A stretch of DNA of 64,000 nucleotides from a virus (IMGVR_UViG_3300028558_000001:64001-128000); one strand, 5' to 3'. Positions 16,998 to 48,608 are shown, numbered from the stretch's first letter. Program-made: numbers and translations. Notes: generated by a model from the letters alone, not told the origin.

Positions 16998-17417
16998 TTA
17001 ACGAAGACGTTTAAGAATTAATGATAGTGTTATCGGAGCAGGGTTGTTTACTAATGAAAATGTCAGAGATACATTTAAATAATTTTCATCTGAACTTGGC
17101 GAAACATCTAGAGAAACAATCTTTACGCGAGGTTCATTGAATTCAATTGTATTTGTTATAGCGAATTTTATAGTATTTATCCCAATATCAACGTTCTGTT
17201 CGAACAATTGGCGCTTAACATCTGATCCAATAGTAGAATCATACCATCTTTCCCCAAGATTTGTTAGGATAAGACATTTTAGTGACTGCTTAATCGCCTG
17301 TTCATTAGTAACAACAGCAAGTCCATTAGATAATGGATTCATATCAAGGTTCATTGGTATATCAGAGAAATATACCTCTTGCTTTTTATTTGGTGTAATG
17401 AAATCAGAACGACTCAA
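16998..17417 (-). CDS. gp25: Baseplate wedge subunit gp25
   Basis: AIKQSLKCLILTNLGER...GS...EPRV motifs; upstream of gp6. Confidence 0.9.
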   Translation of the reverse strand: MSRSDFITPNKKQEVYFSDIPMNLDMNPLSNGLAVVTNEQAIKQSLKCLILTNLGERWYDSTIGSDVKRQLFEQNVDIGINTIKFAITNTIEFNEPRVKIVSLDVSPSSDENYLNVSLTFSLVNNPAPITLSLILKRLR

Positions 17418-22577: not shown

Positions 22578-23039
22578 GTGGCATATAAGTACTATAATGG
22601 TTATTATAAACCCAAGAATCCAAAGAAGTATAATGGTAAGGATTTAAATAATATTGTTTATCGTTCTGGTCTTGAATTAAAACTCTTTATGTACTTGGAT
22701 GCTCATCCTGACGTGATTTATTGGGGAAGTGAAGAACTAACCGTAGATTACATATCACCAAAAGACAACCGTAAACATAGATACTTTCCAGATGTAATTG
22801 TTAAACTTAAAGATCGCAACGGAAAGATTATTACTATGATGATCGAAATAAAGCCCTCGGATCAAGTTAATGAACCGAAGGCTATTGAGCGTGGTAAGCA
22901 ACCAACTAAACGACAGATTAATGAAATAATTACTTATGGTGTTAATCAAGCCAAATGGGCGGCAGCTAAAGTTTTCTGTGCCCAACAAGGTTGGGTATTT
23001 GAAATCATGACAGAGAAAGATATTAAAGGGTTGAAATAA
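22578..23039 (+). CDS. gp4: Head completion nuclease gp4 (TnsA-like)
   Basis: YKPKNPKKY.G, IVYRS..E, W.SEE, HRYFPD, IEIKP, NQAKWAAA, F.IMTEK. Confidence 0.92.
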   Translation: MAYKYYNGYYKPKNPKKYNGKDLNNIVYRSGLELKLFMYLDAHPDVIYWGSEELTVDYISPKDNRKHRYFPDVIVKLKDRNGKIITMMIEIKPSDQVNEPKAIERGKQPTKRQINEIITYGVNQAKWAAAKVFCAQQGWVFEIMTEKDIKGLK

Positions 23040-23412
23040 TATACTCAATAGCTTGAGGTACATGTTCAACAGTATTAAATTCACCGTTTAAAATATCTTC
23101 AATATGATAGATAGATACAATCTCATCTGTCTTGGAAGTAAAATACATCGGAGAAATAGTAGTATAATAGATGAACATTATTGCATCATCATATTTAATT
23201 GTTTCTGATAAAATGAAATTTTCTTCATCAACATTACAACCAGCTTCTTCTAATAGTTCTCTTTTAGCAGCAGTACGTGGAAGTTCACCTTCCTCTACTT
23301 TACCACCAATACCATTTAGTTGATCCTTCTGCCAATCTGGTCTTTTCTTTCGGATAAGAAGAACCTTATCCATAGTTTGGTTAAAAACAAACGTTAGTAC
23401 ATATTCTTGCAT
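23023..23412 (-). CDS. NUDIX hydrolase
   Basis: Nudix box GGKVEEGELPRTAAKRELLEEAG. Confidence 0.9.
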   Translation of the reverse strand: MQEYVLTFVFNQTMDKVLLIRKKRPDWQKDQLNGIGGKVEEGELPRTAAKRELLEEAGCNVDEENFILSETIKYDDAIMFIYYTTISPMYFTSKTDEIVSIYHIEDILNGEFNTVEHVPQAIEYIISTL

Positions 23413-23663
23413 TAATATTGCTCCTGTAAATTATTCCTTGTAAAAGTTAATGAAATCTTATTATCTACTACTTTAGATTCATAACTAACCAAAACTCCAT
23501 ACGTTACACCATTATGATAACGGTCAATAGCATGTGCCATAATGGTGGATACATTATATCCATACATAGCCGCAAAATCATGAGCAAATTCTGGAGAATA
23601 CTCATACTCAATACCTTTATAACAACCTTTAATTGTTCCAGTTATTCCATCATACATAGCCAT
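23412..23663 (-). CDS. Small protein containing a major-capsid (gp23)-like segment
   Basis: YSPEFAHDFAAMYGYN resembles gp23 YSIELAQDLRAVHGMD. Confidence 0.6.
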   Translation of the reverse strand: MAMYDGITGTIKGCYKGIEYEYSPEFAHDFAAMYGYNVSTIMAHAIDRYHNGVTYGVLVSYESKVVDNKISLTFTRNNLQEQY

Positions 23664-23941
23664 TAAATTTCCTTAATATCAATTACAATTTGATTATTAT
23701 CAATCATTATAGGAGTATTGTTAGTAGAATCACATACTATATTAAAAACTTCTAATTCTGGAAATGAAAAGTTAATAATACTACGAACATTAAGTCTAGT
23801 TAAAGCATCATTCATTTCAAATAAAATATAATCATAGATAACTTTTTTAATAGTTTCTCTTAAAGGTAAAGAGATTAAATTTGATATATTATCATCTACA
23901 TTAATGATAATAGTATCTTTTGGTGACATTACATTTAACAT
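23663..23941 (-). CDS. Stand-alone tail-sheath (gp18) C-terminal-domain-like mini protein
   Basis: LFEMNDALTR...F.IVCDSTNNTPIMIDNNQIVIDI resembles sheath FE.ND..TR...VVCDETNNTP..ID.N..V.DI. Confidence 0.7.
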   Translation of the reverse strand: MLNVMSPKDTIIINVDDNISNLISLPLRETIKKVIYDYILFEMNDALTRLNVRSIINFSFPELEVFNIVCDSTNNTPIMIDNNQIVIDIKEI

Positions 23942-23953
23942 TAATTATTCCTT

Positions 23954-26167
23954 TTAAATTAAGCATCCATCTGCACCGTTGCCGACACATGCAGCAGCAC
24001 CGGTAGTTGAAACATCAATGTATTTCTTTTCAAAGAGAGAATTTTCCCAATCAATGTCAACTAGGTTTTGCTGAATCTTTTCCCACTTGTGAAGTAGATA
24101 TACGTCCTTGAGACAATATTCAGCGTCTTTTCTTACTCCACTAAAGTAATTGACACGATACTTCTCAAAGCGACGAATCCAATCCTTCTTAAGAAGATTA
24201 TCATGATCATCAGAGGAAATATCTGCACCAATTCCATATACAGCAGAACAAGCTGTCCATAGATTTCCAAAGGCTCTAAGAGCTTCGACAACTAATCCAG
24301 ATGCAAAGATTGCTCCTGTACCATAATATTCAATGATTTCTTCACCGCTCATGACTTTAGTGAATGGAGCCTGATCGTAATCTTTATCTCCTGATCCTGC
24401 TAGGAATGAAATACCAGCAAAAGTTTCCTTATGGTTAAAGACATATTCTTCTACTGTATCCCAATCATCAACTGTTACTGTATTAGAAATATTATGTCTA
24501 ACTGTTGGATCAACACATAGATCAAGATTAGTACCAGCTTCAACCCAATTTTTCTGAGCCTTAGCAATTAGTTCAAGATGCTTAACTCCTAACAAATCCT
24601 TATTGAAGATAGAAGTCTCAGGAGCAATAACAGGGAATGATACAACATAATCCGTTTTATTAGCTGACCATACTGATTCTTCTACCATATATGGATTGGT
24701 CTTCTTGATTAACTGAGCTACTTCGGTATCCTTGTTTAACTGCATGTTTCTTAGATACATTGGTGCATGTTCGCCACCAATACCAGAAGCAGTCATTAGA
24801 AGAACAGATGCATTACCAGATGGCTTGGAGCATGTGGTACGAGCAGCAGGATTAATGCCAATCATTTCGGCAACAATCTTATTAGTTTTCTTAACGATTT
24901 CAGCACCAGTTCTTAGAACTTCTTCATCAAATAGAATAGCAGGATTATTCATCCAACCAGTAATTGATACTCCTAATAGTGCTTCTCTCTCAAAAATCTT
25001 CTTTGAGGTCTCTGGTAAGAAGTTAAAGGTAGTATAACCAGCCTGTAGTGTACCGATAATTGCTCCTACCTTACATGCTCGATAGAATGTTTCAATATCA
25101 GAACACATACCGCCATTGGTTTCTACAAGATTACAGCCCTGCCAACCAGTCTGACCTTCATATTGAGGGAACATACCAATTTCTACACAAGGATTGTAGA
25201 CATGTTCTTCTGAATCAACAAAGACGAATCCGGGTTCACCAAATTCCTTAACACTCTTCATAAGTGAAGCGAACTTTTCTCTAGTAATCTTGGAGCGAAC
25301 AATGACTGCGGAGTTATTGGAACGTCCTCTTTGTGGGTTATCTGTGAACCAATTACCAGTCTTTGCCGTTGCCATTTCCTCATCTTCTGGTGAGAATAGG
25401 CAAATTGTAGCAGAACGACGAACACCACCAGAAATGACAGCATCAGCAGCATACATTACAATATCATAGACATGAATTGGTTTTAATTCAATTCCGCCCT
25501 TCTTGGAAAGTGTTAGTCCCTGTAATAGATACTCGATCTTATCTAGAGCTAGACGGAGAGGTTCTGGACCCGGAGCCTTGAAGCCACCTGAAATCATTGA
25601 ATTCTTAAGTCTAATTAGGGATAGATCAAAGTAAACTCTGCGGCCTTCGTATTCAGGATACTTACCGCCGCCCTCAAAGAAGGAAGCCATTAGAACGTCT
25701 AATGCTGTTGCCCATCCTTCAATAGAATCTTCAACGACATGAAGCTTGGGCTGCTTGGTGCGGAGTTTAATTTTGGGGAGTTTAGAGATATGGTGCTTTT
25801 GTACAGAGAAACCAGCACCAGCACCACATAACATAACCCAAAAGATTTCACCAAAAAATTCTGGTCTATCTGCATATGTAGAAGTACAATTATACATCTT
25901 CATATGGTTCTTAAGGATTTGATCGCCACCGAACTGTAAAGCTCTCTGAGCGCCTAGAACTAACTTGTCTTGATATGCGGAAGTTGCTTCTTCGATTAGT
26001 TCTAGTAATTGTGGTGTTAATTTATCTTCATAATACTTTTTATGCATATTCATAACTCTTAAGACTGATTCATTCCAAGTCTCGTATCTTCCAAGTTCCT
26101 CATCCCATCTAGAATAACCTTCATAAAACTTGGTGTCAGACATTAATTGACGTGTATTCAAATACAT
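23954..26167 (-). CDS. Ribonucleotide reductase catalytic subunit (NrdJ-like or NrdAk-type; class uncertain)
   Basis: YSRW...YETW, MYNCT, GGVRRSA, NPCVEI, CNLVE, KPSG and C-terminal Cys pair; 737 aa. Confidence 0.9.
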   Translation of the reverse strand: MYLNTRQLMSDTKFYEGYSRWDEELGRYETWNESVLRVMNMHKKYYEDKLTPQLLELIEEATSAYQDKLVLGAQRALQFGGDQILKNHMKMYNCTSTYADRPEFFGEIFWVMLCGAGAGFSVQKHHISKLPKIKLRTKQPKLHVVEDSIEGWATALDVLMASFFEGGGKYPEYEGRRVYFDLSLIRLKNSMISGGFKAPGPEPLRLALDKIEYLLQGLTLSKKGGIELKPIHVYDIVMYAADAVISGGVRRSATICLFSPEDEEMATAKTGNWFTDNPQRGRSNNSAVIVRSKITREKFASLMKSVKEFGEPGFVFVDSEEHVYNPCVEIGMFPQYEGQTGWQGCNLVETNGGMCSDIETFYRACKVGAIIGTLQAGYTTFNFLPETSKKIFEREALLGVSITGWMNNPAILFDEEVLRTGAEIVKKTNKIVAEMIGINPAARTTCSKPSGNASVLLMTASGIGGEHAPMYLRNMQLNKDTEVAQLIKKTNPYMVEESVWSANKTDYVVSFPVIAPETSIFNKDLLGVKHLELIAKAQKNWVEAGTNLDLCVDPTVRHNISNTVTVDDWDTVEEYVFNHKETFAGISFLAGSGDKDYDQAPFTKVMSGEEIIEYYGTGAIFASGLVVEALRAFGNLWTACSAVYGIGADISSDDHDNLLKKDWIRRFEKYRVNYFSGVRKDAEYCLKDVYLLHKWEKIQQNLVDIDWENSLFEKKYIDVSTTGAAACVGNGADGCLI

Positions 26168-26213
26168 TAACTTACTTACCTCTTTATAATTTTTGATTAA
26201 ATTTCATAGCGAC

Positions 26214-26221
26214 TATAAATA
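26214..26221 (+). promoter_or_regulatory. T4-type late promoter TATAAATA for gp2
   Basis: Exact consensus; implies the true gp2 start lies downstream (ATG 26250 or TTG 26262). Confidence 0.7.
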
Positions 26222-26249
26222 CTTACATACTATATTTAACTCTCTAATA

Positions 26250-26954
26250 ATGGATTTTTACTTGGCAGACTACCTTTTTCAACAAATTCGCAAAGAAGCT
26301 AAAACATTCCGAGACGAAGACGGTCAACCGATCAGTCTCAGACGAAATGAAGAAAAGGCCAGAGAATGGTATCAGAACGCGGCTGAGCAAGTAGCATCAG
26401 TCAATAATAACAGACTATTCCAGTCTATGGACCCATTTACTCGTTTCCAACGTATTGACTCAAGGTCAATTGGAAAAATGTACATGTTCCAATACGCAGC
26501 CAAGCATAGGGATAGACTTCCCTATTATGACATGTTTCCAATCGTTTTTCCAATAGAAATTTATTCTAATGGATTTCTTGGTATTAACCTCCATTACCTT
26601 CGCCCATATCATAGAGCATGGTTAATGGATGAACTTTTCAAGTTGAAAAATAATGATAGCTGGAATAAGAACACTAAACTCCAAGAAGATAAAGAAGCCG
26701 CTCTTTCATATCAATTCTTGAAGTCAGTTATTCCTTCCCCACTATTCAAGCCTACACTTCACAGGTATCTCATTTCAGATTCATCTAAAGGATATTACGC
26801 TGGTGTAGTATCTCCAAATTTCTATTATATCAATCCCGGTTTATGGGATTACGCTGCCCTTCTACCAACTCAACGTTTCGTAAAGGGTATCCACAATACG
26901 GCAATCTCATCAGAGCAAGTCTGGTTGGATTCAAACTCTGCTCGTTATCGGTGA
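26250..26954 (+). CDS. gp2: DNA end protector protein gp2
   Basis: GKMYMFQY.AKHRDRLPYYD.FP, GFLGINLHYL, W..AALLPTQRF, VW.DS motifs. Confidence 0.9.
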   Translation: MDFYLADYLFQQIRKEAKTFRDEDGQPISLRRNEEKAREWYQNAAEQVASVNNNRLFQSMDPFTRFQRIDSRSIGKMYMFQYAAKHRDRLPYYDMFPIVFPIEIYSNGFLGINLHYLRPYHRAWLMDELFKLKNNDSWNKNTKLQEDKEAALSYQFLKSVIPSPLFKPTLHRYLISDSSKGYYAGVVSPNFYYINPGLWDYAALLPTQRFVKGIHNTAISSEQVWLDSNSARYR

Positions 26955-27135: not shown

Positions 27136-28155
27136 ATGAATTATCTTGAATTGAAATATATGAATTTAGTTGCCTACAAGTTAAGGAACTATAAGCAACG
27201 ATCCAATAGACTCATTAACTTTTCATGTCCATATTGTGGAGATTCTTCTCATAAGAAGAATAGAGCTAGAGGATATATTCTAGAGAAGAATGGTTCTTCT
27301 GTATTCTATTGTCATAATTGTTCTGTTACAAAATCAGTAGAACAATTTATTAAATTTCTTGATGAAACAACATATCAAGAAATGATGATGGAAAAGTTTG
27401 AAGACACTAGAAAAGAAAAGAAAGATGAATATCAGGTTGACTTTTCGACGGTCAAGAGGACTTTTTCTAATAAGATATTAGGCGGAATGAAAAAGATTTC
27501 ACAACTGAAACATGATCATCCTGTCAAGAAATATATTGAATCAAGAATGATCCCAACTAATCTTCATTATAAGTTATATTACTGTCCAAAGTTCATGGCT
27601 TGGGTAAATTCGATCATTCCAGATAAGTTTTCAAAAGAAGCACTTGCCTATGATGAACCTAGACTCCTTATTCCTTTTTGGGACAAGGAGGGCAATATCC
27701 ATGCGTTTCAGGGAAGAAGTTTCAAGAGAAAGACCGATACCAAGTATATCACAATCGTCTTGGATGAATCAACGCCAAAATTATATGGGCTTGACACTCT
27801 GGACGAAAGGGCTAGAATCTACGTTCTTGAGGGTCCAATTGATTCTATGTTCATACCAAATGCCATAGCAACGGCTGGTGGAGATATGGTATCGGCAGTC
27901 TCAGGATTTGATAAAGAGAACCTTGTTATCGTATATGATAATGAACCACGTAGTATTGAAACTCATCATAAACTTGACAAAGCTATAGATAACGGGTATA
28001 ATGTTTGTATATTTCCAGATGCGGTCACTGAAAAAGATATTAATAAAATGCGCGAAGCTGGAAGAAGTTCGCCCGGTATTAAGTCAATAATTGATTACAA
28101 TATCTATTCTGGTTTAGAGGCCAAGCTAAGATTAGCCGAATGGTCCAAGAGATAA
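27136..28155 (+). CDS. gp61: DNA primase gp61
   Basis: CPYCGDS...CHNC zinc finger, QGRS, EGPIDSMF TOPRIM, YDNEPR, KDIN. Confidence 0.95.
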   Translation: MNYLELKYMNLVAYKLRNYKQRSNRLINFSCPYCGDSSHKKNRARGYILEKNGSSVFYCHNCSVTKSVEQFIKFLDETTYQEMMMEKFEDTRKEKKDEYQVDFSTVKRTFSNKILGGMKKISQLKHDHPVKKYIESRMIPTNLHYKLYYCPKFMAWVNSIIPDKFSKEALAYDEPRLLIPFWDKEGNIHAFQGRSFKRKTDTKYITIVLDESTPKLYGLDTLDERARIYVLEGPIDSMFIPNAIATAGGDMVSAVSGFDKENLVIVYDNEPRSIETHHKLDKAIDNGYNVCIFPDAVTEKDINKMREAGRSSPGIKSIIDYNIYSGLEAKLRLAEWSKR

Positions 28156-32295: not shown

Positions 32296-32709
32296 TTGAG
32301 TACAGTTTCAAATAATATTTTAAGTTTTCCAGTAAATGATAATCTTCCTTATACGCCTCCAAAGACGAGGGAACAAATTAGAGAGAACATTGATTTAATC
32401 AGACAGATTCATGTTCAGGAAGCTCTTGAAATTGTTATGGAACTAATGTTTACCCATCTGCAATTAGCCGGGTTTAATATTGATGATGAGAATACTCCTT
32501 CACAAAGAGAAGGCGCTTTCATCGCAGAATCCATTCGGTCAGTTCTCCTAAATATCTATGGGATTGATCATCCCTTCCAGAAGATTTGTGACAACATCTT
32601 CGTTGAACGGAAAGATGGTTCTCTTGATATTGCTAAGGAAATTGCATTAGTTCTTAAGGAAGATAGTCCTGAACCTGAATTAGAATTAGAATTAGAAAAT
32701 GAGGAATAA
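32296..32709 (+). CDS. Conserved T4-like hypothetical protein
   Basis: NNILSFP...ESIRS.....GIDHPFQ; directly upstream of RNase H. Confidence 0.55.
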   Translation: MSTVSNNILSFPVNDNLPYTPPKTREQIRENIDLIRQIHVQEALEIVMELMFTHLQLAGFNIDDENTPSQREGAFIAESIRSVLLNIYGIDHPFQKICDNIFVERKDGSLDIAKEIALVLKEDSPEPELELELENEE

Positions 32710-33572
32710 TGATAATTATTGATATTAGTCAAACCATTATTAGTAATATAATGGTTTCTCCTGAAATGAAAGAATCAAAGAACCTAAATCTTGAAATGGT
32801 TCGCAGTATGGTTCTAAAGACAATCAAATCATTCAATAATAAGTTTAAGAATGAGTATGGTAAGTTAGTTATTGCCGTCGATGCTGGTAATACATGGCGC
32901 AGGGAATATTTTCCTTATTATAAAGTAAAGCGTCGTGAAGCACATGCAGAGTCAGTAATTGACTGGAAGAAAGTCTATGAAATTATCAGGATCATCAAGA
33001 ACGAATTGAAAGAAACCTTTCCTTATCCGGTGATTGAAGTTGAAGGAGCCGAAGCTGACGATGTTATTGCTTCTCTCTGTAAACATTTTGGTGAAGAAGG
33101 ATTTGGTGCTTCTGAAAAGATTTTGATCTTATCAAGAGACAAAGACTTTATCCAGCTACACAAGTATTCTAATGTGGATCAATTTGATCCTATTGGAGAC
33201 AAGTGGATTAGAAATATTGATCCAGAATTATATCTCAAAGAACATATCATCCGTGGTGATTCTGGAGATTCAATTCCAAACATCTTATCTGCTGATGATT
33301 GTTTTGCCTTAAAGATTAGGCAGAAGTCAATCATGACCAAGAAAGTTGATGTATGGCTAGGACAGGATTGGAAAGAATTCTGTGACGAAGATACATTGAA
33401 AAGAGTAGAAAGAAACACCACTCTTATTGATCTAACTAGAATTCCTCCAGCTATTGGGGTTAAGGTCATTGAAGAGTATTCCGCCCAACAAGGTAAACCC
33501 CGCAATAAGATTTTTAACTATATGATTAAGAATGGTTTAACAAGTCTTATGGATGACTTACAGGATTTTTAA
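32709..33572 (+). CDS. rnh: RNase H / 5'-3' flap exonuclease
   Basis: IIID, WRR..FPYYK..R, EADDVIA, S.DKDF.QL, GDSGDSIPNI. Confidence 0.93.
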   Translation: MIIIDISQTIISNIMVSPEMKESKNLNLEMVRSMVLKTIKSFNNKFKNEYGKLVIAVDAGNTWRREYFPYYKVKRREAHAESVIDWKKVYEIIRIIKNELKETFPYPVIEVEGAEADDVIASLCKHFGEEGFGASEKILILSRDKDFIQLHKYSNVDQFDPIGDKWIRNIDPELYLKEHIIRGDSGDSIPNILSADDCFALKIRQKSIMTKKVDVWLGQDWKEFCDEDTLKRVERNTTLIDLTRIPPAIGVKVIEEYSAQQGKPRNKIFNYMIKNGLTSLMDDLQDF

Positions 33573-33836
33573 ATGAATTTAGAAGAATTTTTAAAAAGAT
33601 ATACTGATGAAGTAGATACAGAAGATACTTTTAGATCACTGTTTCTTTCTGCTCAGTTAATGGAAGATTTAAAGGCAATTCAGGGTGTTGATGCTATTGA
33701 AGAGTTATATCAGATTATGAAGGTAGAGTTTACTGCTAAGGCTTCTTTAGAATTACTTACCGTAGATATGCTTGAATATATCTTAGAAAGAAAGAGAGAT
33801 AATGGTACAGAAGATAATCAACAGAACACTCAATAA
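33573..33836 (+). CDS. Small protein containing a major-capsid (gp23)-like segment
   Basis: LSAQLMEDLKAIQGVDAIEELYQIMKVEF resembles gp23 YSIELAQDLRAVHGMDADAELSGILATEI. Confidence 0.7.
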   Translation: MNLEEFLKRYTDEVDTEDTFRSLFLSAQLMEDLKAIQGVDAIEELYQIMKVEFTAKASLELLTVDMLEYILERKRDNGTEDNQQNTQ

Positions 33837-34245
33837 TTTTTTTAATAGTGTTCAAGAAACCGAAATTGGTTCAGGAGTTAGATTTCCTATCAGAGCAACT
33901 ATTAAGTTGATTCTAGAAAATCAAGAATTGTTTTCTTTAAAGACAACAGCAGATGCACCAACATTTCTTTATAATGACCTTGCATATCTTGTTATGTCAA
34001 AGGCATTAAAAACTAAATTTGATTTATCTCAGACAATTGATGATAGGTTAATGAATCCAAAGCATTATGAAGATGATTATATAGATTTGGTAGTTAATGA
34101 GTTAGTATCCCTTATTAAAAGAGAAACAGAAGATGGTTCAATTTATATTATGTATGCACCAATCATTCTTGTGAAAGCTATTGATCCTGTTACCTATCAG
34201 CCTCAGATTGCATTTAAGACTAGATATGGTCTAGTAAAGAAGTGA
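33802..34245 (+). CDS. Mini major-capsid-like protein (gp23 N- and C-terminal motifs)
   Basis: RATIKLILENQE (gp23 N-term ..LENQE) and YAPIILVKAIDPVTYQPQIAFKTRYGLV (gp23 C-term ..DP..FQP.MGFKTRYG). Confidence 0.75.
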   Translation: MVQKIINRTLNNFFNSVQETEIGSGVRFPIRATIKLILENQELFSLKTTADAPTFLYNDLAYLVMSKALKTKFDLSQTIDDRLMNPKHYEDDYIDLVVNELVSLIKRETEDGSIYIMYAPIILVKAIDPVTYQPQIAFKTRYGLVKK

Positions 34246-45815: not shown

Positions 45816-48566
45816 TTAGGCAAAGCTTCCATAACCAGCGAACAACTTCTTTAGATGAGCGTCAGCGGGGGCAACTTCTGCGGTCTTTTCCTTTTTAGGA
45901 GTTGTTGTATCACTCTTGCTACTTCCAGTAGAAGTTTGGACACTAACCGATGAAGATGATGGAGTAGTTTTTGCTACTTCATTATCTGTAGATATATCGT
46001 CTAATTGTTTACCAGTAGATGGGTCTTGATCTAAAATAGTATTTTTAAATGTATTCTGATTATCAGCATTTAATGGGTCTATTCTAGATGCGTCTCTAAT
46101 ATCAGAATTCATTCTTCCACCAGAATCCCTCAACATTTCACCAACGCTTTTTCTCATTGGTGTTGGAGCGCCAATACTATTACCAAAAGTGTTCTGGTTA
46201 TCAGCACTAGTTAAATCATTATCAGTTGGAGTAATATTATATGGAGGTTTATATTCTACTTGTGAAGGAAGCGGAGTAGCTTCTTCTTCATTTAGTTGAC
46301 TTGGTGGACTTGGATTTGGATTTATACTAGTAGGTATATCTCTTTGACTCCAAGAAATAACTCGGTCCCTTACTTCCTCTGGAACTTTATTAAATTGACT
46401 TGGAGTCATTTTTTGAAGTTGTCTTAATGTAGGATCAGTTTTTAATGGCTTTTGTGGTATTGGTGACTTATAGACACGATCATCACCTTTATCAGAATCA
46501 AGAGAAGCTTTATCTGTTTTTACTACTGGTGCAGCATCTTTAGCTGGTGCATCATCTTTTTTAGCTGGAGCAGGTTCTTCTTTAGGTGTTAAATCAATTT
46601 TTCCTGCATCTTCTATTTTCATATTTTTTAAGTTATTATATAACTCTTCGGGATTAGTCCCTTGCTGAGCAGCCGCAGCCGCGACTTTCGCAAAGTACCC
46701 GCCATCATGTTCGCCACGAAATGATTTAATAAATTCTGCATATGATCTAGAATGTTGTGCTAGAGATACTAAGCTTTTCTGTGCTAAACTACCATACATT
46801 TGACGGTCATGTTCAGTTGCGCCTAACTCACCTTTACCACCATAACCCAATACAGGATCATTTGGATTTCTAAGCATTCTCTGACCTTGATCAATTAATT
46901 TATCAAGGTGTACTTTTTCTGCATCTGATAACTTATCATAATTTTGCTTTTTAAAGTTTTCCCAATACCCCTTTGTAATTTGAATTGGACCATATGCTGA
47001 TGATGATCTTCCCCCATTTTGAGAAGGTGTGACCCTTGTTCTGATGAATCTATTTTCATCAGTTATAGCCCCTGCATTTCCAGTCTCGGCTTTCATAATA
47101 GAACGCATCATTGTATCGGCAGGGGAGCTTACGAATGGACTCTTTGTATTAGGGCTACTTCTATTGTCAGGAGTGGCGTCACCACCACTCTGCTTTTCTC
47201 TCATTCTAGCAGAATAAGCATCTGATTCTTTATTAAATGCATCTTCATCATGAACTTTATCGCCCATACCAAATGCCTTTAACATAGAATCAGCATTTTT
47301 ACCGGCATTAACTCCAGTAGTTGCATTGTTAAATGCATTGCCTAACATTGCACCGCCAAGACCAAGCGCCCCGGCAATACCAAGTACAGTAGCTAATTTA
47401 GATTTAAACTCTTGGAATTTAGTTTCTAGATTTTTCTCACTTTTAGAAACCTTAACAGGCTTACCATCTGCCTCAGTAATATTATGTAGAAGTCTTTCAA
47501 CCTTTTCTTCTGTTTCAGCAATACGTTCTAGGAACTTGTTAGTGATCTTAGCTTCTTTAGGAAGTTCTTGTGCTTCTTTATCTAAGTCTTGTTCTTCGAG
47601 CTTATGAACAATATCTCCATTTGGCTTAATATAAAAATTAGCACTATCAGGACGCATACCATTTGTATTACGGAAGCCAGCCGCCGCAGAAAAACCACCA
47701 GATGATGTAGGCTTTCCAGCAAGAAATTGCTCACGCTCTTTCATTACTTCCTGCATTGTTTTATTATTTTCTTCCAAAACTTTTGCTAGTTTTGTATTTT
47801 CAGTTTTTCTAACAGCTTCAATAAGATCATTTGGCTTAGAACGTTTTACTTCTATATCACGATCTTCTTTTTCGTGTTCTACTCTTCTTTTAGTATTTTT
47901 AGCTACTTGCTGTTTTTGAACTAATTTTGCAACATTATATTGATAATCAGCTTCATCACTGGCTTTATTTAATGCAGTTAATTTGTCTCTATAAGCTTTA
48001 GTATTAAAAGCTCCTTTAATGCCTTTATGTTCTCTACGATGCTCAGAGATTTTTAATTTAGCTGATTTTCTATCAACGTCCATTTTCTGAACGGTTTCAT
48101 ATAAGTCAGATGTTTTGATTCTATCAGCAGCAGCTTCTTCACGTCTTTTAGCGTCTAGTGCTTCTCTAGCTTTTCTGTCTTGTTCTGCTTGTGCATCAAC
48201 TACTTTTTTTATTTCAGCATTACTAAGCTTCGAAGCAGCCGTAGCAGCAGCTTCTAGGTCTCTGATTTTTCTATCAAATGCCTTTTCCATAGCATCAATT
48301 TCTGCTTGGAATTTTTTGCGAGCGTTTTCATCGGCTCTCTGAGCCTTTTCATGAAGGTCTCTTAATTGTCTTTGGGCTGTAGCTAATTGATTATTGAGAG
48401 AACCTAAGTGTCTTTTCTGTTGTTCTTGTTCTCTATCTTGACGGTCAGCTTCACGTTTAGCTTTACGAGCATTAGCATCCATTGCTTTATATACATCTGG
48501 AAATGCTCTCTTTACAAGAAAATTAAAAGGATCGAATCCTGAGTTATTATTTTTATTATCACTCAT
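45816..48566 (-). CDS. gp29-like baseplate hub/tape-measure protein with lysozyme-like domain
   Basis: Coiled-coil N-term, central hydrophobic segment, IMKAETG...SSAYGPIQIT transglycosylase-like motif; downstream of gp26-gp51. Confidence 0.6.
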   Translation of the reverse strand: MSDNKNNNSGFDPFNFLVKRAFPDVYKAMDANARKAKREADRQDREQEQQKRHLGSLNNQLATAQRQLRDLHEKAQRADENARKKFQAEIDAMEKAFDRKIRDLEAAATAASKLSNAEIKKVVDAQAEQDRKAREALDAKRREEAAADRIKTSDLYETVQKMDVDRKSAKLKISEHRREHKGIKGAFNTKAYRDKLTALNKASDEADYQYNVAKLVQKQQVAKNTKRRVEHEKEDRDIEVKRSKPNDLIEAVRKTENTKLAKVLEENNKTMQEVMKEREQFLAGKPTSSGGFSAAAGFRNTNGMRPDSANFYIKPNGDIVHKLEEQDLDKEAQELPKEAKITNKFLERIAETEEKVERLLHNITEADGKPVKVSKSEKNLETKFQEFKSKLATVLGIAGALGLGGAMLGNAFNNATTGVNAGKNADSMLKAFGMGDKVHDEDAFNKESDAYSARMREKQSGGDATPDNRSSPNTKSPFVSSPADTMMRSIMKAETGNAGAITDENRFIRTRVTPSQNGGRSSSAYGPIQITKGYWENFKKQNYDKLSDAEKVHLDKLIDQGQRMLRNPNDPVLGYGGKGELGATEHDRQMYGSLAQKSLVSLAQHSRSYAEFIKSFRGEHDGGYFAKVAAAAAQQGTNPEELYNNLKNMKIEDAGKIDLTPKEEPAPAKKDDAPAKDAAPVVKTDKASLDSDKGDDRVYKSPIPQKPLKTDPTLRQLQKMTPSQFNKVPEEVRDRVISWSQRDIPTSINPNPSPPSQLNEEEATPLPSQVEYKPPYNITPTDNDLTSADNQNTFGNSIGAPTPMRKSVGEMLRDSGGRMNSDIRDASRIDPLNADNQNTFKNTILDQDPSTGKQLDDISTDNEVAKTTPSSSSVSVQTSTGSSKSDTTTPKKEKTAEVAPADAHLKKLFAGYGSFA

Positions 48567-48600: not shown

Positions 48601-48608
48601 TATTTATA
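48601..48608 (-). promoter_or_regulatory. T4-type late promoter TATAAATA
   Basis: Exact consensus upstream of the gp29-like gene. Confidence 0.65.

What the first reader, a model, noticed from the sequence alone, without database searches (positions are those of the whole stretch)
23663..23941. Stand-alone tail-sheath C-terminal domain (92 aa)
Seen: LFEMNDALTRLNVRSIIN...FNIVCDSTNNTPIMIDNNQIVIDIKE matches the conserved sheath C-terminal signature FE.ND..TR...VVCDETNNTP..ID.N.F..DI. Established: this domain forms the inner handshake mesh of contractile sheaths. Inference: a free copy could cap or poison sheath polymerisation of rival myoviruses, tailocins or T6SS, or decoy a sheath-sensing defence.
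Basis: partly seen in the sequence, partly recalled or inferred. Interest (0 to 1): 0.75.

Follow-up and report, generated by a model that had tools for sequence, protein, structure and literature searches.

The report
Free-standing tail-sheath docking domain gene
An uncultured T4-like phage carries, in a gene block inserted far from its tail genes, a small intact gene that encodes only the docking domain of the tail sheath; it probably acts as a molecular mimic of that domain, but what it binds is untested.

Summary
Window 23663-23941 (minus strand) is an intact 92-aa gene with a ribosome-binding site. It is translationally coupled to its neighbours.

Its product is a diverged copy of the C-terminal domain of T4-type tail sheaths:
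- PHROG tail sheath: E 9e-8.
- hhalign against a sheath alignment: 97% probability, E 4e-11.
- BLASTP against the phage's own sheath: E 4e-10.

Pfam's own model does not detect it. The phage has a complete 708-aa sheath gene about 80 kb away, so this is an extra, domain-only copy. It corresponds to T4 gp18 residues about 548-631, the module on which neighbouring subunits, gp15 and gp3 dock, and it lacks both donor arms.

It lies in a 3.15-kb block (RNR, this gene, an 83-aa ORF, Nudix) inserted between gp4 and gp2, which are adjacent in five relatives. Fourteen related phage records lack any such copy. Other uncultured phages carry comparable mini-proteins among replication genes, some with Tat-like leaders. 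This genome also holds mini-ORFs that copy capsid and portal blocks.

Co-folding with the phage's own sheath passed (0.62 against 0.00 for controls), but this may only reflect likeness to solved sheath structures. Function is untested. The candidates are an acceptor-only competitor of sheath assembly, an immune decoy, or a remnant. This scan has noted similar mini-genes in other genomes.

The parts
23663..23941 (-). 92-aa gene (P0001) encoding only the tail-sheath C-terminal domain. It is equivalent to own-sheath residues about 577-678 and T4 gp18 residues about 548-631. It has no N-terminal arm, no Phage_sheath_1 domain, and lacks the last ~30 residues of a sheath.
23949..23953 (-). Shine-Dalgarno-like AAGGA, 7 nt upstream of the ATG. 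It follows directly after the RNR stop codon (23954-23956). A second in-frame TAA at 23945-23947 rules out a read-through fusion with RNR.
   Evidence: read
23412..23663 (-). 83-aa ORF (P0143) coupled to P0001 by a TAATG stop/start overlap. It has no family hit. Residues 10-46 weakly resemble the phage's own major capsid protein at 206-242.
   Evidence: Smith-Waterman 58 against 29.9 +/- 4.5, 0 of 2000 shuffles; BLASTP not significant
23023..23412 (-). Nudix hydrolase gene, the last gene of the block. Its start overlaps the ORF83 stop by one base.
23954..26167 (-). Ribonucleotide reductase gene (phrog_367), the first gene of the block. P0001 starts 12 nt after its stop codon.
23023..26167 (-). 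3.15-kb minus-strand block (RNR, P0001, ORF83, Nudix) inserted between gp4 and gp2. These two genes are directly adjacent in five related near-complete phage genomes.
22578..23039 (+). gp4-type head completion gene (phrog_218), the left flank of the insertion.
26193..26954 (+). gp2-type DNA end protector gene (phrog_429), the right flank of the insertion. A TATAAATA late-promoter motif lies at 26214-26221.
33573..33836 (+). 87-aa mini-ORF from the same genome's repertoire. Residues 26-62 are 46% identical to own major capsid protein residues 219-255.
33802..34245 (+). 147-aa mini-ORF. Its C-terminal 34 residues are 59% identical to own major capsid protein residues 386-419, and Pfam Gp23 matches this place at 30.8 bits.

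Best explanation
P0001 is a real accessory mini-protein, probably made early or in the middle of infection. It consists of just the C-terminal domain of a T4-type sheath: two helices packed on a small antiparallel sheet.

In a sheath, this domain is the acceptor. It receives strands from neighbouring subunits and, on the top ring, from the terminator gp15. Its helix lies against the tube and gp3. P0001 keeps the acceptor but has neither the N-terminal arm nor the C-terminal ~30 residues that a subunit gives to its neighbours.

The most likely mechanism is therefore competitive mimicry. P0001 would bind the strands or surfaces that normally dock on a sheath C-domain, most plausibly those of T4-type sheath protomers, and it cannot pass the contact on. 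It would then cap or sequester protomers instead of extending the lattice.

Shown: homology, domain boundaries, an intact and coupled gene, accessory status, and a co-fold pass with the phage's own sheath.

Inferred: expression timing, actual binding, and who gains from it (restraint of the phage's own sheath polymerisation, or interference with a co-infecting T4-like phage).
For: Homology and boundaries:
- Sequence and profile matches to sheath C-termini.
- The AF2 model has pLDDT 85.1 with the elements E10-15, H25-38, H46-65, E66-69 and E84-91.
- Foldseek's top hits are the KP1 and T4 sheaths: probability 0.92-0.98, TM 0.51, 72-77 columns.
- The ESM Atlas holds this exact sequence with a single-sequence model at pLDDT 0.82.
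- T4 gp18 residues 548-631 are described as a domain of two strands and two helices. It forms a shared five-stranded sheet with gp15 that caps the sheath, and its helix contacts gp3 (PMC12929629).

Signs of a maintained gene:
- No stop in frame, against 4-19 in the other frames. The chance of an open frame at this composition is 9e-5.
- GC1 > GC2 > GC3, the pattern of the phage's other genes.
- 15 of the 21 residues identical to the own sheath use different codons.
- It matches the sheath consensus at 25 of 56 columns that are >=90% conserved, but at only 2 of 26 columns that are 50-90% conserved.
- Shine-Dalgarno sequence and TAATG coupling.

Binding: the co-fold of own sheath plus P0001 scored 0.62, with the best of 3 controls at 0.00. 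That mark was reached by 58 of 80 solved complexes and 2 of 110 mismatched pairs. These counts hold only roughly here, because my own alignments were used. The runs agree in at least 77% of contacts, and the partner's pLDDT is at least 72. The interface joins P0001 residues 28-48 and 79-91 to sheath residues 538-546, 580-599, 648-651 and 681-692.

Context:
- The block is an insertion.
- No TATAAATA late-promoter motif precedes RNR or P0001, whereas gp48 and a 916-aa ORF have one.
- Comparable stand-alone proteins elsewhere also sit among replication and nucleotide-metabolism genes.
Against: - The co-fold pass may come from likeness to solved sheath lattices, or from the model completing a partial domain with the homologous parts of chain 1. 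I could not inspect coordinates to tell a lattice-like contact from an intramolecular-like one.
- A cap that binds the conserved surface would also harm the phage's own tail assembly unless its timing or dose prevents that.
- The gene is a singleton. The exhaustive search found nothing closer than about 45% identity over about 60 residues.
- It is absent from 14 related records, so purifying selection could not be measured.
- Some relatives carry Tat-like export leaders, which fits poorly with a cytoplasmic sheath-poison role for the family as a whole.
Confidence: 0.35

Rival explanations
1. Immune decoy. P0001 would be one of several early-made mimics of conserved virion-protein surfaces (sheath, capsid, portal). 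Each would occupy a host sensor of virion proteins without activating it, or activate it harmlessly.
For: - The genome holds a set of such mini-ORFs: capsid blocks at window 33573-33836 and 33802-34245 and at G000 141034-141198, a block of the portal-position protein at G000 152289-152438, and P0001.
- ORF83, which is coupled to P0001, weakly resembles a capsid block.
- Capsid and portal proteins are proven targets of bacterial sensors, and many core virion folds are sensed (10.64898/2026.01.04.697583).
- P0001 lies in an inserted, lineage-specific block.
- A stand-alone relative sits two genes from an Acb1 anti-CBASS gene.
- Stand-alone copies have very long branches, 1-3.4 changes per site against 0.03-0.3 for real sheaths, as expected for arms-race genes.
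Against: - No defence system that senses a tail sheath is known.
- P0001 and ORF83 have no hit in PADLOC.
- The host and its defences are unknown.
- I know of no validated case of a truncated structural protein acting as a decoy in phages, and the paper searches found none.
- The mini-ORFs share no common tag.
Confidence: 0.25
2. Functionless fragment. A piece of some sheath gene was captured when the RNR-Nudix block was inserted. It is still open by recency or luck and has no role.
For: - It is a singleton with no close relative in 1.8 billion representative proteins or in IMG/VR.
- It is absent from 14 related records and from 80 loci with a related RNR.
- It has the lowest G+C of the neighbourhood (0.21; GC3 0.11).
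- 31 of the 56 columns conserved in real sheaths have changed.
- Pfam does not detect it.
- The tree cannot exclude an origin from the phage's own sheath lineage (p-AU 0.34).
Against: - An open 92-codon frame at this composition has a chance of 9e-5, and the other five frames carry 1-19 stops.
- It has its own Shine-Dalgarno sequence and start codon, and it is coupled on both sides.
- What is retained is exactly the invariant core (F41, E42, N44, D45, R49, C70, D71, T73, N74, N75, I80, D88), kept through synonymous codon differences.
- The boundaries coincide with a structural domain.
- It is predicted to fold alone.
- Similar domain-only genes recur in other phages.
Confidence: 0.25
3. Part of the phage's own virion or tail-assembly line. 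Examples would be an extra ring or adaptor at one end of the sheath, or a dedicated sheath chaperone.
For: - The domain is the one used at both sheath ends: gp25-type initiators and gp15 terminators dock on or imitate it (and general knowledge of gp25/TssE).
- The co-fold with the own sheath passed.
Against: - It is absent from all 14 related records, which build the same kind of tail.
- It is not encoded with tail genes and has no late-promoter motif.
- The phage already has a gp25-type gene at 16998-17417.
Confidence: 0.08

Closest known systems
C-terminal domain of T4-type tail sheath proteins (T4 gp18 residues 548-631; Pfam PF17482 Phage_sheath_1C; PDB 9mkb, 3j2m, 9ev2)
   Same: P0001 has the same domain: the motifs LFExND..TR, V-C-D-x-T-N-N-T-P and ID.N...D, and two helices with antiparallel strands. 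It is 33-40% identical to real sheaths over 55-86 residues.
   Different: P0001 is only this domain, 92 aa instead of about 650-710. It has no N-terminal arm, no Phage_sheath_1 domain, no outer domains and none of the last ~30 residues. A loop is 9 residues shorter. It is encoded in an RNR-Nudix block, not with tail genes. It falls below Pfam's detection.
Undescribed stand-alone sheath C-domain mini-proteins of uncultured phages (P0004, P0005, P0007, P0009, P0011, P0013, P0018, P0020, P0022, P0024, P0264)
   Same: These are 81-161 aa proteins built on the same motif core, encoded among replication or nucleotide-metabolism genes: after DnaB, near Acb1, and downstream of an RNR. In a tree P0001 falls among them, with weak support.
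   Different: P0001 is the shortest form and ends right after the ...V-I-D-I strand. Most of the others keep the next strand, and some keep the C-terminal arm. Seven (P0004, P0009, P0011, P0013, P0018, P0020, P0264) have a Tat-like RR leader, which P0001 lacks. Identity to them is only 23-44%.
T4 gp15 tail terminator (and the short C-terminal strands of other myophage terminators)
   Same: gp15 works by beta-sheet augmentation on the sheath C-domain, which caps polymerisation (PMC12929629). The proposed mechanism for P0001 uses the same interface logic.
   Different: gp15 donates strands to the sheath domain. P0001 is the acceptor domain itself. There is no sequence relation.
gp25/TssE sheath initiator
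   Same: It is a small single-domain protein that stands in for a sheath core domain in the handshake. This rests on general knowledge and was not tested here.
   Different: P0001 has no Pfam or PHROG match to gp25. The phage has its own gp25-type gene at 16998-17417. gp25 is a late baseplate protein.
DSAD1 of phage SPbeta (inhibitor of DSR2, which senses the tail tube protein)
   Same: It is a phage protein that competes at a sensor of a tail protein, and so is a functional precedent for the decoy reading.
   Different: DSAD1 is not a fragment of the sensed protein. No sheath sensor is known.
Eukaryotic microProteins (single-domain dominant-negative derivatives of multi-domain proteins)
   Same: They keep one interaction domain of a larger assembling protein and form non-productive complexes. 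This is a concept from general knowledge.
   Different: They belong to a different kingdom and different folds. Nothing comparable has been validated in phages.

Membership tests
Pfam PF17482 Phage_sheath_1C | Match to the Pfam model at or above its gathering score (26.9 bits) | tested here: not met
   There is no Pfam hit at E <= 1 or at E <= 10. The phage's real sheath scores 50.6 bits.
T4-type sheath C-terminal domain (homology in the wider sense) | Significant profile or pairwise similarity to the C-terminal ~100 residues of sheath proteins | tested here: met
   phrog_10581 E 8.9e-8; hhalign 97.2%, E 4.3e-11; BLASTP to own sheath E 4e-10; T4 gp18 residues 569-625 at E 2.5e-4.
T4-type sheath C-terminal domain (homology in the wider sense) | Invariant motif residues (FE.ND..TR; VCD.TNNTP; ID.N; D) | tested here: met
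   All 12 invariant or >=90% conserved columns of alignment A1 that carry a P0001 residue are kept in P0001. It matches 25 of 56 columns that are >=90% conserved in 120 sheaths.
T4-type sheath C-terminal domain (homology in the wider sense) | Fold: two helices on a small antiparallel sheet, superposable on solved sheaths | tested here: met
   The AF2 model has pLDDT 85.1. Foldseek's top five hits are the KP1 and T4 sheaths: probability 0.85-0.98, TM 0.51-0.52, rmsd 3.0-3.9 A, but E only 0.05-0.23. The model rests on an alignment made mostly of sheaths.
Functional contractile sheath subunit (gp18 type) | N-terminal arm plus Phage_sheath_1 domain (PF04984) that build the core together with the C-terminal part | tested here: not met
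   P0001 has only 92 aa and covers own-sheath residues about 577-678 only. The conserved core needs both the N- and C-terminal parts (PMC9230969).
Functional contractile sheath subunit (gp18 type) | C-terminal ~30 residues after the domain (next strand and terminal arm) | tested here: not met
   P0001 stops at ...V-I-D-I-K-E-I, where the own sheath continues for 32 residues.
Functional contractile sheath subunit (gp18 type) | Encoded with tube and other tail genes | tested here: not met
   It lies between RNR and Nudix in an inserted block. The real sheath sits next to a tube-position gene and a portal-position gene.
gp25/TssE sheath initiator | Sequence match to the gp25 family; baseplate gene context | tested here: not met
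   P0001 has no such hit. A gp25-type gene (phrog_261) is present at 16998-17417.
Stand-alone sheath C-domain mini-proteins (undescribed group) | 80-160 aa, sheath C-domain motif only, gene placed among replication or nucleotide-metabolism genes | tested here: met
   Whether the group is monophyletic is unresolved (p-AU 0.49).
Stand-alone sheath C-domain mini-proteins (undescribed group) | N-terminal Tat-like leader (RR + hydrophobic stretch), seen in a subset | tested here: not met
   The P0001 N-terminus (M-L-N-V-M-S-P-K-D-T...) has no RR motif and no hydrophobic stretch. Compare P0011, P0013 and P0264.
Phage anti-defence decoys (DSAD1-like in function) | Binds and blocks a host sensor of a virion protein | not testable with these tools
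   The host is unknown. No sheath sensor has been described. P0001 has no PADLOC hit.

The most novel reading that the evidence does not exclude
P0001 is one member of a genome-wide set of early-expressed 'virion microproteins'. The set comprises a sheath docking domain, three or four capsid blocks and a portal block. T4-like phages would use them as decoys or dominant-negative baits against host sensors of conserved virion folds, or against co-infecting relatives. That would be a class of phage counter-measure not yet described.
Probability: 0.25. Interest if true: 0.85.

Novelty: new variant of a known kind. Interest (0 to 1): 0.6.

Why it matters
The sheath C-terminal domain is the hub of contractile-tail assembly. 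Neighbouring subunits, the terminator and the tube terminator all dock on it.

A phage that expresses this hub alone, from a replication-type operon, suggests that phages use isolated assembly domains as soluble competitors or baits. If it caps sheath growth, it would be a natural, genetically encoded inhibitor of T4-type tails and a tool for controlling sheath polymerisation. If it is a decoy, it predicts a bacterial sensor for tail sheaths that has not yet been found.

The gene is also one instance of a wider pattern that I did not find described in the paper library searched: small genes that copy conserved blocks of capsid, portal and sheath proteins.

Tried and rejected
- Pfam on P0001 and ORF83 at E <= 10: no hits. 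PADLOC: no hits for either.
- Word-index search for proteins of similar length: only the query itself.
- IMG/VR pattern scans with P0001, ORF83 and gp4: no relatives.
- 80 IMG/VR loci with a 64-72% identical RNR: no sheath-domain ORF nearby, and a different gene order, with RNR following primase.
No read-based test was possible.
- The strongest hit of the exhaustive search, P0003 (1241 aa, E 5.5e-15), is a repeat protein that matches a 19-28 residue stretch about twenty times. I judged it spurious.
- A profile search with alignment A1 returned mostly contig-end fragments of ordinary sheath genes. Two begin with M-L-F-R-S, which is translated adapter sequence. That list was not used as evidence for stand-alone genes.
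- First AF2 run with 15 sequences: pLDDT 63.7, too weak to use.
- Tree of C-domains: P0001 falls among the stand-alone proteins, but those branches are long. AU tests reject neither an origin from the phage's own sheath clade (p 0.34) nor a single stand-alone clade (p 0.49).
- Search for a peptide tag shared by the six mini-ORFs of this genome: none, all z < 2.
- Capsid-like neighbours beside five other stand-alone sheath-domain genes: none.
- Flanking repeats around the inserted block: only short chance-level matches.
- Read-through fusion with RNR: excluded by a second in-frame TAA.

Full report
**What is there.** The window is part of a 176,660-bp IMG/VR phage record with direct terminal repeats, and the window covers bases 64001-128000 of it. 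The genes are those of a T4-superfamily myovirus:
- baseplate genes of the gp6, gp25, gp5, gp53 and gp48 types;
- gp4 and gp2;
- primase, DNA polymerase, UvsX, a DnaB-type helicase and gp32.

The nearest cultured relatives by sheath protein are Stenotrophomonas phage DLP6 (49%), Caulobacter phage Cr30 (46%), the Sinorhizobium phiM12 group and Pelagibacter phage HTVC008M. Genome G+C is 37%.

The flagged ORF at 23663-23941 on the minus strand is open for 92 codons. Its start codon follows AAGGA by 7 nt. The RNR stop codon lies directly before that AAGGA, and a second in-frame TAA excludes a read-through fusion. The ORF's stop overlaps the start of an 83-aa ORF as TAATG, and that ORF overlaps the Nudix gene in the same way. 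The four genes RNR, P0001, ORF83 and Nudix therefore form one tightly coupled minus-strand unit.

**Is the sheath likeness real?** Yes.
- PHROG tail-sheath families match at E 8.9e-8 and 1.4e-4, both at the C-terminal end of the profiles.
- tblastn finds 1448 phage records, one place each. All 40 listed places lie in sheath genes.
- BLASTP to the phage's own sheath gives 38% identity over residues 39-89 against 620-676, E 4e-10.
- The Smith-Waterman score is 104, against 33 +/- 5 for shuffles.
- hhalign against 56 sheaths gives 97.2% probability, E 4.3e-11.
- T4 gp18 residues 569-625 match at E 2.5e-4 in the PDB sequence set.

Membership of that Pfam family by its own criterion is therefore not met, although homology is secure.

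**It is an extra copy.** The genome has a complete 708-aa sheath gene at G000:C1:168145-170271. That protein carries Gp18_domIII_N, Phage_sheath_1 and Phage_sheath_1C. It sits next to a tube-position gene and a 596-aa portal-position gene. The 92-aa gene is about 80 kb away.

**Exact anatomy.** With an 83-row alignment, AF2 gives pLDDT 85.1. The elements are a strand at 10-15, helices at 25-38 and 46-65, a strand at 66-69, a short helix at 77-81 and a strand at 84-91. Foldseek's best matches are the sheaths of Klebsiella phage KP1 and T4, with probability 0.92-0.98 and TM 0.51 over 72-77 columns. The E-values are weak (0.05-0.2), as is usual for so small a query. The ESM Atlas holds the same sequence with a single-sequence model at pLDDT 0.82.

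The recent T4 neck-tail structure defines the gp18 C-terminal domain as residues 548-631, with two antiparallel strands and two helices. The paper reports that these strands join three strands of the terminator gp15 in a shared five-stranded sheet that probably caps the sheath, and that the domain's helix contacts the tube terminator gp3 (PMC12929629).

By the alignment, P0001 corresponds to that domain and to nothing else. It lacks three things:
- the N-terminal part that completes the conserved sheath core (PMC9230969);
- all outer domains;
- the last ~30 residues of a sheath.

A loop between the second helix and the V-C-D strand is 9 residues shorter than in the own sheath.

**Gene or relic?** Several observations argue for a maintained gene.
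- The frame has no stop. The other five frames of the same 279 bases have 1-19 stops. At this composition (G+C 0.21), an open frame of 92 codons has a chance of about 9e-5.
- Codon-position G+C falls from 0.30 to 0.22 to 0.11, the pattern of the phage's other genes.
- Of the 21 residues identical to the own sheath in the two motif blocks, 15 use a different codon. The likeness is therefore kept at the protein level and does not come from a recent DNA copy.
- Against 120 sheaths of the phage's own clade, P0001 matches the consensus at 25 of 56 columns that are >=90% conserved, but at only 2 of 26 moderately conserved columns. It keeps every invariant or nearly invariant column of the mixed alignment.

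Other observations argue the other way. P0001 is far more diverged than any real sheath, since 31 of the 56 conserved columns have changed. It has no close relative anywhere, so dN/dS cannot be measured. No read data could be obtained.

**Accessory status.** In five related near-complete genomes, with sheath identity of 50-55%, gp4 and gp2 are directly adjacent and co-directional, next to gp48, gp53 and the genes that follow. In this phage, a 3.15-kb minus-strand block is inserted between them.

In 30 other phage contigs with a 64-72% identical RNR, that gene follows the primase gene, and no sheath-like ORF lies within 5 kb. A profile search of 14 related records, five of them at least 86% complete, finds only their sheath genes.

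Among 50,697 isolate phage records, second copies are very rare: 1448 places in 1448 records for P0001, 2599 in 2594 for P0005, and 2244 in 2243 for P0013.

The T4-type late-promoter motif TATAAATA lies upstream of gp48 (22525) and of a 916-aa ORF (48601), and on the plus strand at the gp2 start. None precedes RNR or P0001 on the minus strand. A sigma-70-like TTAAAT-16-TATAGT lies about 50 nt upstream of the RNR start (read). This is a consensus match only. Early or middle expression is therefore inferred, not shown.

**Relatives of the design.** The exhaustive search returned about a dozen proteins of 81-161 aa that start with Met and carry the same motif core. Six of them have a Tat-like leader, with RR followed by a hydrophobic stretch.

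Where context was available, they lie among small early genes:
- one directly after a DnaB-type helicase;
- one two genes from an Acb1 anti-CBASS gene;
- one (P0264, Tat-type, on a 51.8-kb IMG/VR contig) about 3 kb downstream of an RNR and before a DNA methyltransferase and a RuvC-type resolvase.

The ESM Atlas lists several viral clusters of 51-181 members and 108-148 aa as nearest neighbours. Some of these may be gene fragments.

In a tree, P0001 falls among the stand-alone proteins. All of them have very long branches, and AU tests leave the origin open. Searches of the paper library for the Pfam name or accession, and for decoy or truncated structural proteins, found no description of such proteins.

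**The same genome holds more mini-copies.** A self-comparison of small against large ORFs finds the following:
- window 33573-33836: 87 aa, 46% identical to capsid residues 219-255;
- window 33802-34245: 147 aa, 59% identical to capsid residues 386-419, and also a Pfam Gp23 match of 30.8 bits;
- G000 141034-141198: 54 aa, matching capsid residues 86-129;
- G000 152289-152438: 49 aa, matching residues 317-363 of the 596-aa portal-position protein;
- P0001.

ORF83, the gene coupled to P0001, aligns to capsid residues 206-242 with a Smith-Waterman score of 58, against 29.9 +/- 4.5 for shuffles (0 of 2000). BLASTP and the profile libraries do not support this match, so it remains a weak lead. The mini-ORFs share no common tag.

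Earlier notes of this scan describe similar capsid and sheath mini-genes in other uncultured phages. I treated those notes as leads and checked only what concerns this genome.

**Mechanism.** A sheath subunit has one acceptor, the C-domain sheet, and donor segments that reach neighbouring subunits. P0001 is the acceptor alone.

The co-fold of P0001 with the full own sheath passed the tool's mark. The score was 0.62, with the best of three controls at 0.00. That mark was reached by 58 of 80 solved complexes and by 2 of 110 mismatched pairs. These counts are only rough here, because my own alignments were used. The runs agree in at least 77% of contacts, and the partner's pLDDT is at least 72.

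The confident contacts pair the last strand of P0001 (79-91) with sheath residues 681-692, the strand that follows the sheath's own C-domain. They also pair the F-E-M-N-D segment of P0001 (39-45) with sheath residues 538-546 and 586-587. This fits an acceptor that takes up a strand of another protomer. It fits equally well a model that completes a partial domain from memory of sheath structures, and I could not inspect coordinates to decide between the two.

I therefore rank 'acceptor-only competitor of T4-type sheath contacts' first at 0.35, the immune-decoy reading at 0.25, a functionless captured fragment at 0.25, and a virion or assembly part at 0.08.

A T6SS target is unlikely. The profile of these proteins matches T4-type sheaths at 1e-25 to 1e-28, matches other injection-system sheaths only at 1e-3 to 1e-6, and matches no TssC chain.

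The protein is a new architectural variant of a well-known domain. It is one case of a recurrent pattern that appears to be undescribed. This scan has noted comparable mini-genes before, on other DNA.

Noticed in passing
window 33573-34245 (+): Two overlapping small ORFs (87 and 147 aa), just downstream of the 287-aa nuclease-like ORF at 32709-33572, each carry one conserved block of the phage's own major capsid protein: residues 219-255 at 46% identity and 386-419 at 59% identity. Pfam Gp23 matches the second block at 30.8 bits.
   Followed up: partly
G000:C1:141034-141198 (-) and G000:C1:152289-152438 (-), outside the window: Two more mini-ORFs copy blocks of virion proteins. A 54-aa ORF resembles capsid residues 86-129 (39%, E 5e-7). 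A 49-aa ORF resembles residues 317-363 of the 596-aa portal-position protein (38%, E 3e-5).
   Followed up: no
window 23412-23663 (-): The 83-aa ORF coupled to the sheath-domain gene has no family hit. It aligns to capsid residues 206-242, around the motif Y-S-x-E-x-A-x-D, with a Smith-Waterman z of about 6. BLASTP finds nothing significant.
   Followed up: partly
window 23023-26167 and loci L192-L196: The RNR-to-Nudix block is inserted between gp4 and gp2, which are adjacent in five related genomes. In other phages with a related RNR, that gene follows the primase gene. Here the primase gene (27136-28155) lies just beyond gp2, which suggests a local inversion or transposition of the RNR region.
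   Followed up: partly
window 23023-23412 (-): The Nudix hydrolase of the block matches the PADLOC candidate-defence model PDC-S07 (E 7e-11). A phage Nudix enzyme placed beside mimic-like genes might act on signalling nucleotides.
   Followed up: no
L197:3936-4370 (+); proteins P0004, P0009, P0011, P0013, P0018, P0020: A subset of the stand-alone sheath C-domain proteins of uncultured phages carry a Tat-like leader, with RR followed by a hydrophobic stretch. This implies export of a folded sheath domain. The copy in L197 lies about 3 kb downstream of an RNR gene.
   Followed up: partly
window 45816-48566 (-): A 916-aa ORF with a TATAAATA late-promoter motif about 35 nt upstream (48601-48608) has no PHROG hit at E <= 0.001. 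It is probably an unrecognised virion protein.
   Followed up: no
database proteins P0016 and P0107: Their N-termini read M-L-F-R-S, which is the translation of ATGCTCTTCCGATCT, an Illumina adapter sequence. These 'proteins' are contig-end artefacts of sheath genes and not stand-alone genes.
   Followed up: yes
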